Part shown: piece after piece, positions 12,038-13,201 of the stretch
How the letters are laid out: each line of letters begins with the position of its first letter
How positions within the stretch are numbered: the first letter of the stretch is position 1
DNA from: Candidatus Hermodarchaeota archaeon
GTDB lineage: Archaea; Asgardarchaeota; Heimdallarchaeia; Hodarchaeales; Hodarchaeaceae
Length of the DNA: 21,346 nucleotides
Direction of reading: 5' to 3'
NCBI GenBank assembly: GCA_048886185.1
Contig: JBHLKY010000022.1
Coordinates: 53,964 to 75,309 of the forward strand
Position numbers and translations under genes: made by a program
Notes under the pieces: model-generated
Seen by the model: only the letters and a program-made list of their open reading frames with translations
The model's database searches: none
Told to the model about the DNA's origin: nothing

Positions 12038-13201
12038 ATGATGCGTGTCTTACATGTTGAAGGAAAAAATCTAAAAGAAATCAATCCCCCTTATGAATTT
12101 TTAAACGGTGACGTATACGTCATCGATAATAGTGATGTCAGTGTTGGTCTCGAGAAAAAGGTCTATATTTGGTTAGGATCCCAAGCGTTTGCAGATGATC
12201 GGGCGGTTGGCGCATGGGCAGCGAAACAATTAGATCTTAAAGACAAAGAAATAGACATTGATACAGAGGTCGAGGGTAATGAATCCGAGGAGTTTAAAGG
12301 ACTATTAGAATTTTTTGTGGTCACTGGAGATACTCCTGGATTTTTAAAGCATGTTGAAGTTAATAAAGAAGAGATCTCATATGCACTCTACCGTATTCGC
12401 GATGTCGACCTTACAGACGGATCCTCATCTGATGATATTGTAATTGAAAATGTTCCTTTAAAACAGGAATCATTTATTAGTGATGATGTCTTTGTACTTG
12501 ATGCCTATCACGATTTATATGTCTGGGTCGGATCTGGGTCACAAGTTGGAGAAAAAGCTGCAGGAAATAGATTAGTTCGTAAGTTGGATGTTGCACGTGA
12601 ACGAAATCCAATGGTTTATACTATAGGAGACGGACATGAACCAAAGGGATTCTTTGATTTAGTTAATAAACTAGCGGAATCAGAAGAGGTACGAACCGAT
12701 GATGCTTCTACAATGTCTGAAGGTATAACTGGCGGTATTACTGATTTAATGGGAGCAACCCAAGAGTCAGGTGCATTACCTCCCATATCAAAACCAGAAC
12801 CAACTCCCGTACCAACACCGACACCAGTTTCTGAACCAGTAAAAGCTCCACCTCAACCTGAACCTAGTCCCACGGATCTAGGATTGGGGATACCGAAACC
12901 ATCTCCAACAAGTAAAATAGTAAAGCTTTATTATGTAGACGGAGAATTTCGAGAATTAGGAGGAAATGAAGAGGCTGTTCTAGAGATAGATGAATCGAAA
13001 CAAATGGCAACAATAAGCTTTACAGAAGGAACAGGCCTCATTACTCAACGCACAGCTGGACGTCAAGCACGGGGTATCTGTAAAACGGGATTTCTACTAA
13101 AATCTGGTTATCGTGTGGGAAAGCAATGTGAACTTAAGGAAATTAAAGGAGAAAGAGAGATTCACGATAGGCTTTTACAAGTAGGACATAAATACAGGTA
13201 A
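12038..13201 (+). CDS. Gelsolin-family actin regulator: two gelsolin domains, Pro-rich linker, additional C-terminal domain (387 aa)
   Basis: Two gelsolin cores: GDVYVID...VYIWLGSQAFADDRAVGAWAAKQLD...EVEGNESEEF and SDDVFVLDAYHDLYVWVGSGSQVGEKAAGNRLVRKLD...GHEPKGF. Pro/Thr-rich linker at ~12776-12910. Confidence 0.93.
   Translation: MMRVLHVEGKNLKEINPPYEFLNGDVYVIDNSDVSVGLEKKVYIWLGSQAFADDRAVGAWAAKQLDLKDKEIDIDTEVEGNESEEFKGLLEFFVVTGDTPGFLKHVEVNKEEISYALYRIRDVDLTDGSSSDDIVIENVPLKQESFISDDVFVLDAYHDLYVWVGSGSQVGEKAAGNRLVRKLDVARERNPMVYTIGDGHEPKGFFDLVNKLAESEEVRTDDASTMSEGITGGITDLMGATQESGALPPISKPEPTPVPTPTPVSEPVKAPPQPEPSPTDLGLGIPKPSPTSKIVKLYYVDGEFRELGGNEEAVLEIDESKQMATISFTEGTGLITQRTAGRQARGICKTGFLLKSGYRVGKQCELKEIKGEREIHDRLLQVGHKYR

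What the first reader, a model, noticed from the sequence alone, without database searches (positions are those of the whole stretch)
12038..13201. Extended gelsolin architecture: two canonical domains plus a third divergent domain
Seen: after the linker, EEAVLEIDESKQMATISFTEGTGLITQRTAGRQARGICKTGF keeps the strand-strand-G-helix(A-x-x-x-A) spacing of a gelsolin core but lacks the usual W-x-G. Established: Asgard one- and two-domain gelsolins bind, sever or cap actin, often Ca2+-dependently. Inference: a 2-domain gelsolin fused to a ProGel-like unit could bundle or cross-link filaments and is an intermediate between 1-2 domain and 3/6-domain gelsolins.
Basis: partly seen in the sequence, partly recalled or inferred. 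Interest (0 to 1): 0.65.

Follow-up and report, generated by a model that had tools for sequence, protein, structure and literature searches.

The report
Gelsolin with hidden third gelsolin-fold domain
An Asgard (Hodarchaeales) archaeon encodes a two-domain, calcium-type gelsolin joined by a floppy proline-rich tether to a small third domain that is predicted to have the gelsolin fold but has no significant sequence match to gelsolin; that domain belongs to an unnamed protein family found in most Asgard genomes searched.

Summary
Window 12038-13201 (+) is one 387-aa ORF. It has two Pfam gelsolin repeats, 1.2e-89 to the crystallised Heimdall 2DGel (7WHF). A disordered linker follows (77 aa, 22% Pro), then a conserved 95-aa C-terminal domain containing the quoted peptide and lacking W-x-G.

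The evolutionary reading is not supported. The domain belongs to a separate family present in 257 of 301 Asgard genomes, mostly as stand-alone proteins of about 100 aa. It is also fused to Ras GTPases and coiled coils. In a tree, the gelsolin-fused copies nest among stand-alone ones. This points to fusion of an existing module, not a duplication towards 3/6-domain gelsolins.

The architecture is already in the literature: PWI47685 is cited as a 2DGel with an extension "unrelated to gelsolin". No held paper describes its fold.

Actin binding by the third domain is inferred, not shown. First readers of this scan noted the same architecture on four other genomes.

The parts
12038..13201 (+). Whole gene: 387-aa extended two-domain gelsolin. 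The start may instead be the second ATG at 12041, which gives the 386-aa form P0002.
   Evidence: ORF list and translation. About 60 full-length homologues in Hodarchaeales/Heimdall MAGs.
12038..12337 (+). Gelsolin domain D1 (aa 1-~100), with W45-x-G47 and invariant acidic residues D25, D53, D66, D73 and D75.
   Evidence: Pfam PF00626. Aligns to Heim2DGel 7WHF, E 1.2e-89 over aa 1-248. Invariant columns.
12344..12355 (+). WH2-like LKHV motif (aa 103-106) between D1 and D2.
   Evidence: F102, L103 and H105 are invariant in 35 homologues. The same LKHV motif is described for Heim2DGel in PMC9433394.
12371..12682 (+). Gelsolin domain D2 (aa ~112-215), with W163-x-G165 and invariant D150 and E172.
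   Evidence: Best Pfam PF00626 stretch is aa 137-205. AF2 secondary structure is strand-strand-strand-strand-helix-strand-helix.
12683..12913 (+). Linker (aa 216-292). It starts with a short conserved acidic segment (R219 and D222 invariant). The rest is a Pro-rich (22% Pro), length-variable tract predicted to be disordered.
   Evidence: pLDDT is below 50 for aa 232-253, 267-269 and 284-291. Linker length is 35-106 aa across homologues, median 89. Alignment.
12914..13198 (+). C-terminal domain (aa 293-387): a sequence-cryptic module with a predicted gelsolin/cofilin fold, member of an Asgard-wide family with no Pfam model.
13037..13087 (+). Long helix of the C-terminal domain (aa 334-350). It carries a conserved basic stripe: R338, R342 (invariant in 41/41), R345 and K349.
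   Evidence: Helix predicted in both AF2 runs. Column counts. Placement of the four residues on one helical face is my inference from their i, i+4, i+7, i+11 spacing.
10985..11923 (+). Conserved upstream neighbour: a 312-aa protein of unknown function with a coiled-coil C-terminus, on the same strand and 114 nt upstream.
   Evidence: Found directly upstream of the gelsolin gene in 8 of 9 related loci at 55-80% identity. No Pfam or NCBIfam family.

Best explanation
The gene encodes a composite actin regulator in three parts. (1) An N-terminal Ca2+-type two-domain gelsolin core (D1, an LKHV WH2-like motif, D2) is closely related to Heim2DGel. By homology it binds actin, with calcium-regulated activity of the kind described for Asgard 2DGels (severing, bundling). 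(2) A flexible Pro-rich tether of about 75 aa follows. (3) A 95-aa C-terminal module has the gelsolin/cofilin fold, lacks the W-x-G motif and the Ca2+-ligand pattern, and displays a conserved basic stripe on its long helix. This module was not made by duplicating D1 or D2. It is a member of a separate family, widespread in Asgard archaea, that mostly occurs as stand-alone proteins of about 100 aa and was fused to a 2DGel in the Heimdall/Hodarchaeales lineage. Shown by computation: the domain layout, the predicted fold, the family distribution and the fusion origin. Inferred: the third module is a second, Ca2+-independent actin-binding site. On a long leash, it would let one molecule engage a second actin subunit or filament (bundling, cross-linking or side-anchoring of a capped end).
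Confidence: 0.6

Rival explanations
1. The C-terminal module does have the gelsolin fold but is not an actin binder. It would be an adaptor or regulatory module that couples the gelsolin core to another partner. Candidates are a small GTPase, acidic lipids contacted through the basic stripe, or the protein's own very acidic D1-D2 core as an autoinhibitory latch.
Against: The GTPase adjacency is confined to one genus and absent in the 15 loci examined from other families, except two incidental cases. Asgard genomes carry very many small GTPases, so some adjacency is expected (my knowledge). The closest structural matches are actin-binding gelsolin domains, not the Sec23-type domain. Fusion to a gelsolin fits an actin-related role best.
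Confidence: 0.25
2. The gelsolin-like fold is a modelling coincidence or convergence. The C-terminal domain would be an unrelated small alpha/beta domain of unknown function that merely shares a strand-strand-strand-strand-helix-strand order.
For: There is no significant sequence similarity to any gelsolin profile. Foldseek E-values are weak (best 0.095). Z stays at or below 8.5, with the tool's caution about middling Z. The last ~20 residues have pLDDT of only 59-61.
Against: The best-ranked matches are of a single superfamily: 21 of 21 in the unbiased search and 50 of 50 in the second look. They cover about 70 of 95 residues at rmsd 2.4-3.2. The two MSAs give the same model. Gelsolin-type ORFs are enriched near the top of a genome-wide HMM ranking, roughly P 2e-5 by my hypergeometric estimate with a post hoc threshold. 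The domain is physically fused to gelsolins.
Confidence: 0.1
3. The protein would be a surviving intermediate on the path from 2-domain to 3/6-domain gelsolins, with the third domain homologous to eukaryotic G3.
Against: G3 is not preferred over A4/G4, G1, G2 or ProGel. The third unit is separated by a disordered linker of 35-106 aa; my recollection is that eukaryotic G2-G3 form a compact unit. It nests within a stand-alone family that is also fused to unrelated partners. [quoted passage not shown]
Confidence: 0.05

Closest known systems
Heimdallarchaeota 2DGel (Heim2DGel, OLS25976.1, PDB 7WHF; Akil et al. 2022, PMC9433394)
   Same: D1, the LKHV motif and D2 align end to end (E 1.2e-89, aa 1-248). 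It comes from the same Heimdall-type lineage. The acidic positions that are invariant in this family align with Heim2DGel.
   Different: Heim2DGel ends in a 68-aa charged, probably helical tail. This protein instead carries a 77-aa Pro-rich linker plus a folded 95-aa domain.
B3_Heim 2DGel PWI47685.1 (409 aa), mentioned but not studied in PMC9433394
   Same: It has the same architecture. It sits in the 90% cluster of P0045, which is 61% identical to this protein over 99% of its length.
   Different: The paper describes its 193-aa extension only as a C-terminal extension, and the extensions generally as unrelated to gelsolin domains. Here its terminal 95 aa are predicted to have a gelsolin fold.
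Thorarchaeota ProGel (PDB 7C2F; Akil et al. 2020, PMC7444086)
   Different: ProGel-type proteins are recognisable as PF00626: the profile of this genome's ProGel-like protein hits 7c2f at 1.9e-5 and other gelsolins down to 1e-14. The C-domain family is not recognisable this way. It has its own signature, roughly R-T-A-x-R-Q-A-R-x-I-x-K-x-G-F and D-R-L-L-Q-x-G-H-x-Y.
Loki2DGel / MKD1-2DGel with Link + Zn domain (PMC9433394)
   Same: The design principle is the same: a 2DGel core, a long linker (Pro-rich PEPVQV-type repeats in MKD1), and a small C-terminal domain that also exists as a stand-alone protein.
   Different: The Loki terminal domain is a putative zinc-binding module restricted to Loki. 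This one has a single conserved Cys, a gelsolin-like predicted fold and an Asgard-wide distribution.
Eukaryotic three-domain gelsolins (CapG, severin, fragmin) and gelsolin G1-G3
   Same: Three gelsolin-fold units in one polypeptide, and a Ca2+-type G1/G2-like core.
   Different: The third unit is not contiguous with the second, shows no significant sequence relation to it, has no conserved Ca2+-ligand pattern by inspection of the alignment, and has an independent fusion origin.

Membership tests
Gelsolin repeat family (Pfam PF00626), applied to D1 and D2 | Sequence match to the PF00626 model above the gathering score | tested here: met
   E 7e-23, 80.7 bits against a cut-off of 21, two stretches.
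Asgard 2DGel class (Akil 2020/2022) | Two gelsolin domains joined by a WH2-like LKxV motif, and homology to a characterised 2DGel | tested here: met
   LKHV at aa 103-106, with F102, L103 and H105 invariant. 7WHF Heim2DGel E 1.2e-89; Thor 2DGel3 7c2g E 2.6e-24.
Asgard 2DGel class (Akil 2020/2022) | Ca2+-regulated action on actin filaments (severing or bundling) | not testable with these tools
Gelsolin repeat family (PF00626), applied to the C-terminal domain | Sequence match to gelsolin profiles | tested here: not met
   No Pfam hit at E up to 10. None of 41 family members hits PF00626 at E up to 1. hhalign probability is 0.3-2.8% against the 2DGel and ProGel-type alignments. Only a sub-threshold echo appears in a genome-wide ranking.
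Gelsolin/ADF-H structural superfamily, applied to the C-terminal domain | A mixed beta-sheet packed against a long helix, in the order strand-strand-strand-strand-helix-strand-(short helix), superposable on known members | tested here: met
Gelsolin/ADF-H structural superfamily, applied to the C-terminal domain | The W-x-G strand motif and type II Ca2+ ligands (Asp in the GD strand, Glu at the start of the long helix) | tested here: not met
   The equivalent strand reads ISFTEG. The start of the helix is T/D/E-variable, with acidic residues in only 17 of 41 sequences. Judged by inspection of the alignment, not of a structure.
Eukaryote-type three-domain gelsolin (G1-G2-G3) | A third domain contiguous with G2 and derived from the same repeat lineage (G3-like) | tested here: not met
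   A disordered linker of 35-106 aa separates it from D2. The C-domain nests among stand-alone family members. There is no G3 preference among the structural matches.
1DGelX class | A single gelsolin domain followed by a coiled-coil or disordered domain X | tested here: not met
   This protein has two PF00626 domains, and its terminal domain is a folded alpha/beta unit, not a coiled coil (description in PMC7444086).
Unnamed Asgard ~100-aa family (here called the C-domain family) | A profile match across the whole ~95-aa domain, including the R-x-A-x-R-Q-A-R helix and G-F | tested here: met
   E 1.9e-33 to the family profile, though that profile (A4) was built with the window's own C-domain as its first row, so this match is partly by construction. 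The independent evidence is: stand-alone members are 53-60% identical; 112 representative clusters; 257 of 301 genomes.

The most novel reading that the evidence does not exclude
The C-terminal domain and its stand-alone relatives would be a previously unrecognised, phylum-wide class of Asgard gelsolin/cofilin-fold actin-binding proteins that sequence-based (Pfam PF00626, NCBIfam) surveys would miss. On this reading the Asgard actin-regulator repertoire is larger than the counts in the literature. It would also include modules wired directly to Ras-family GTPases and coiled coils, a physical link between small-GTPase signalling and actin that predates eukaryotes.
Probability: 0.35. Interest if true: 0.8.

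Novelty: new variant of a known kind. Interest (0 to 1): 0.55.

Why it matters
Asgard gelsolins are a main line of evidence that regulated actin dynamics predate eukaryotes. In the papers held here, the C-terminal extensions of 2DGels are described as unrelated to gelsolin or of unknown function (PMC9433394; bioRxiv 10.1101/2025.11.30.690169).

If the terminal domain of the Hodarchaeales form is a gelsolin-fold actin binder, three things follow:
- These proteins have two separable actin-binding units on a leash, which gives a simple route to bundling or cross-linking.
- A family of about 100-aa proteins, present in roughly 85% of the Asgard genomes sampled, would be added to the actin-regulator inventory.
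- The family's fusions to Ras-like GTPases offer a testable link between GTPase signalling and the cytoskeleton, in the lineage proposed in the literature as closest to eukaryotes.

The result also corrects an attractive but unsupported story: this is not a fossil intermediate on the way to 3/6-domain gelsolins.

Tried and rejected
1. Sequence homology of the C-domain to gelsolin. These all came back empty or insignificant:
- Pfam at E up to 10.
- PDB sequences by phmmer and by profile. The only hits were Sap1, E 0.035-0.27, judged chance.
- NCBIfam.
- hhalign against the 2DGel and ProGel-type alignments.

2. Whether the N-terminal-domain-plus-tail members (for example P0190) are the published 1DGelX or ProGel classes. 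They have no PDB or Pfam gelsolin hit, so they are a different family.

3. A zinc-domain analogy with Loki2DGel. Rejected: only one Cys (C348) is invariant among the 35 full-length homologues, and across the broader family that position is Cys in only 19 of 41 sequences.

4. Gene-neighbourhood inference for the stand-alone copies. The Ras-GTPase adjacency holds only within the genus. Neighbours in other families reflect local synteny without an obvious shared theme.

5. ESM Atlas structure search. The Atlas held no model for P0127 or P0125.

6. Literature searches for 3DGel, 2DGelX or a three-domain Asgard gelsolin found nothing relevant. The Nature 2026 supplements are not held.

7. Profilin recruitment by the linker. 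Considered unlikely: the tract is made of P-x-P/PEP repeats and has no run of consecutive prolines (sequence inspection).

Full report
**What is there**

Window 12038-13201 (+) is a single open frame of 387 aa. Pfam finds two gelsolin repeats (PF00626, E 7e-23). Against solved structures, residues 1-248 align end to end with the crystallised Heimdallarchaeota 2DGel (7WHF, E 1.2e-89). They also align with human gelsolin G4-G5 or G1-G2 at about 1e-29.

D1 and D2 carry W45-x-G47 and W163-x-G165, and the C-terminal unit has no such motif.

**Family and layout**

About 60 full-length homologues exist, nearly all from MAGs labelled Hodarchaeales, Heimdallarchaeota or Promethearchaeota. In a 35-sequence alignment (A1) the layout is:
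- D1 (aa 1-~100).
- An invariant F-L-x-H segment (LKHV), the WH2-like motif described for Heim2DGel.
- D2 (aa ~112-215).
- A short conserved acidic segment with R219 and D222 invariant.
- A Pro-rich tract of very variable length. The whole linker is 35-106 aa, median 89, 22% Pro.
- A strongly conserved block of about 95 aa.

AlphaFold2 on A1 gives pLDDT below 50 for most of the linker and 84-94 for aa 290-370. The D1-D2 core is very acidic (net charge -19), while the C-terminal domain is slightly basic (+3).

**The C-terminal domain is an independent module**

A search restricted to aa 290-387 among short proteins found stand-alone 94-aa proteins that start exactly at the domain boundary, on contigs of 13.5 and 251 kb. 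A profile of the domain searched against 1.84 billion representative proteins gave 112 clusters at E up to 1e-3. They fall into five kinds:
- Stand-alone proteins of 80-115 aa.
- Proteins with the domain at the N-terminus followed by a long tail.
- Coiled-coil proteins ending in the domain.
- Two Ras-family GTPases ending in the domain (Pfam Ras E 2e-37).
- Further 2DGel fusions.

In a sample of 301 Asgard genomes the profile matches 257. Among high-quality genomes it matches 81 of 90. This genome has three copies: this gene, a 93-aa stand-alone gene, and a 282-aa protein with the domain at its N-terminus. Neither Pfam nor NCBIfam has a model for the domain.

**Fold**

The domain was modelled alone from a 41-sequence alignment of diverse members (A4). 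The model has mean pLDDT 82.9 and the same secondary structure as in the full-length run: four strands, a 17-residue helix, a strand and a short helix.

- **Foldseek.** Its E-values are weak (0.095 at best), but its top hits are the same proteins.

**Sequence signal**

Profile-profile comparison of the domain family with Asgard 2DGels (A3) and with this genome's ProGel-type family (A5) is not significant (probability 0.3-2.8%). A5 itself hits PDB gelsolins down to 1e-14.

The weak hhalign alignment nevertheless pairs strand B, strand C and the long helix in the expected register. I then ranked all 13,260 ORFs of at least 60 aa in this genome with the domain HMM. After the three true members, two of the seven other gelsolin-type ORFs rank 11th and 17th, in the same register. 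By my hypergeometric estimate this is about P 2e-5, but the threshold was chosen after seeing the data. The reverse search shows nothing.

ESM-Atlas feature neighbours include a 104-aa Asgard cluster in which 28% of members carry PF00626. I read these results as faint support for distant homology. They are not proof.

**Origin of the fusion**

I built a maximum-likelihood tree of 79 domain sequences. The main group of 2DGel-fused domains, including this one, forms a clade with 100/99 support. That clade is sister (93/87) to stand-alone proteins (P0124-P0127). Both lie inside a 99/97 clade that also holds other stand-alone, Ras-fused and N-terminal-domain forms.

The tree is unrooted and short (98 columns). 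Even so, it fits fusion of a pre-existing stand-alone module to a 2DGel and does not fit duplication of D2.

**Mechanism, shown and inferred**

Shown by computation:
- A Heim2DGel-like core with the WH2-like motif and invariant acidic positions.
- A flexible tether.
- A third unit with a predicted gelsolin fold and without the W-x-G/Ca2+ pattern.

Inferred:
- The core behaves like the characterised 2DGels, with Ca2+-regulated binding, severing or bundling (PMC7444086, PMC9433394).
- The third unit is a Ca2+-independent second binding site.

Its most conserved feature is the long helix. R342 is invariant in 41 of 41 diverse members, R338 is R or K in 37 of 41, and K349 is K or R in 36 of 41. 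Their i, i+4, i+7, i+11 spacing puts them on one face, while the small Ala residues (A340, A344) fall on the opposite, presumably buried face. In gelsolin and cofilin domains the long helix is the actin-contacting element (PMC7444086 for ProGel and 2DGel, plus general knowledge). A basic version of it could contact acidic actin surfaces, in a manner I recall for gelsolin G2 or cofilin (my recollection). A module on a leash of about 75 residues could then reach a second subunit or filament.

The main rival keeps the fold but changes the partner: a small GTPase, acidic lipid, or an intramolecular latch on the acidic core. The Ras fusions and the stand-alone gene's position 26-60 nt upstream of a Ras-like GTPase gene support that rival. 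The adjacency holds in this genome and in all four congeners checked, but not in other families.

**What is already known**

Akil et al. 2022 (PMC9433394) list B3_Heim PWI47685 (409 aa) as a 2DGel with a 193-aa extension. They did not study it, and they describe the Loki and Heim extensions as unrelated to gelsolin domains. PWI47685.1 belongs to the 90% cluster of P0045, a full-length homologue of this protein. The architecture is therefore on record.

The 2025 preprint of the L. ossiferum motility paper still calls the 2DGel extensions "of unknown function". I found no paper in the held library that describes this domain, its fold or the stand-alone family. The 2021 review "Mythical origins of the actin cytoskeleton" is not held and could not be checked.

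First readers of this scan made the same fold guess on four other genomes, and one note covers the wider locus in this window. Those notes were unchecked.

**Context**

The order giant protein (2063 aa), 312-aa coiled-coil protein, gelsolin, MFS transporter, SerRS is conserved in 8 of 9 related loci down to 65% gelsolin identity. The 312-aa neighbour has no recognisable family.

**Verdict**

- The fold interpretation is supported on predicted structure.
- The evolutionary interpretation is not supported.
- The function of the third domain is inferred only.

This is a new variant of a known kind. The finding of wider interest is the unannotated gelsolin-fold family present across most of the phylum.

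Noticed in passing
window 10985-11923 (+): A 312-aa protein with a C-terminal coiled coil and no Pfam or NCBIfam family. It lies directly upstream of the gelsolin gene in 8 of 9 related loci (55-80% identity). An earlier scan note calls it longin/uDENN-like; that was not tested here.
   Followed up: partly
window 1-4353 (+) and 4748-10939 (+): Two very large co-directional ORFs (over 1424 aa and 2063 aa) that hit each other's homologues in tblastn, so they look paralogous. They have no significant Pfam domains (only a sub-threshold chagasin-like hit). The second is conserved upstream of the 312-aa gene in related loci.
   Followed up: partly
L011 1498-1779 (-) and 933-1472 (-) (G000 C15): The stand-alone 93-aa copy of the C-domain family sits 26 nt upstream of a co-directional 179-aa Ras-like GTPase gene. 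The pair is conserved in all four congeners examined but not in other Asgard families.
   Followed up: yes
L014 1450-1782 (-) and 416-982 (-) (G000 C8): This genome's ProGel-type single-domain gelsolin (110 aa, PF00626) also lies upstream of a co-directional Ras-like GTPase gene (188 aa), with a gap of about 470 nt. This parallels the C-domain/GTPase pair. It may be chance, given how many GTPases Asgard genomes carry.
   Followed up: no
P0173 (530 aa) and P0189 (493 aa), metagenomic proteins: Ras-family GTPases (Pfam Ras E 2e-37 for P0173) that end in the same C-domain. They form a supported clade (95/87) in the domain tree.
   Followed up: partly
P0170, P0180, P0195, P0198, P0202, P0212, P0224: A clade (98/86) of 250-400-aa proteins with long N-terminal coiled coils ending in the C-domain. 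They could be dimeric versions of the module.
   Followed up: no
L012 491-1468 (+) and 1465-2313 (+) (G000 C6): The third copy of the domain is the N-terminus of a 282-aa protein. Its gene overlaps by 4 nt the end of a 325-aa ORF containing about 130 aa of PxP/PEP repeats. A weak PF00626-bearing 318-aa ORF lies about 7 kb downstream on the same contig.
   Followed up: no
L008 3401-3700 (+); also G211: In two low-coverage MAGs the orthologous C-domain carries a single in-frame stop: one stop in L008 and TAA in G211. This is probably assembly error or a pseudogene.
   Followed up: no
window 13350-21206: The downstream genes are ordinary: an MFS_2 transporter, seryl-tRNA synthetase, a 111-aa ORF with no Pfam hit, a UbiA prenyltransferase, a PAC2-family protein and a Cdc48-type double AAA ATPase.
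   Followed up: yes
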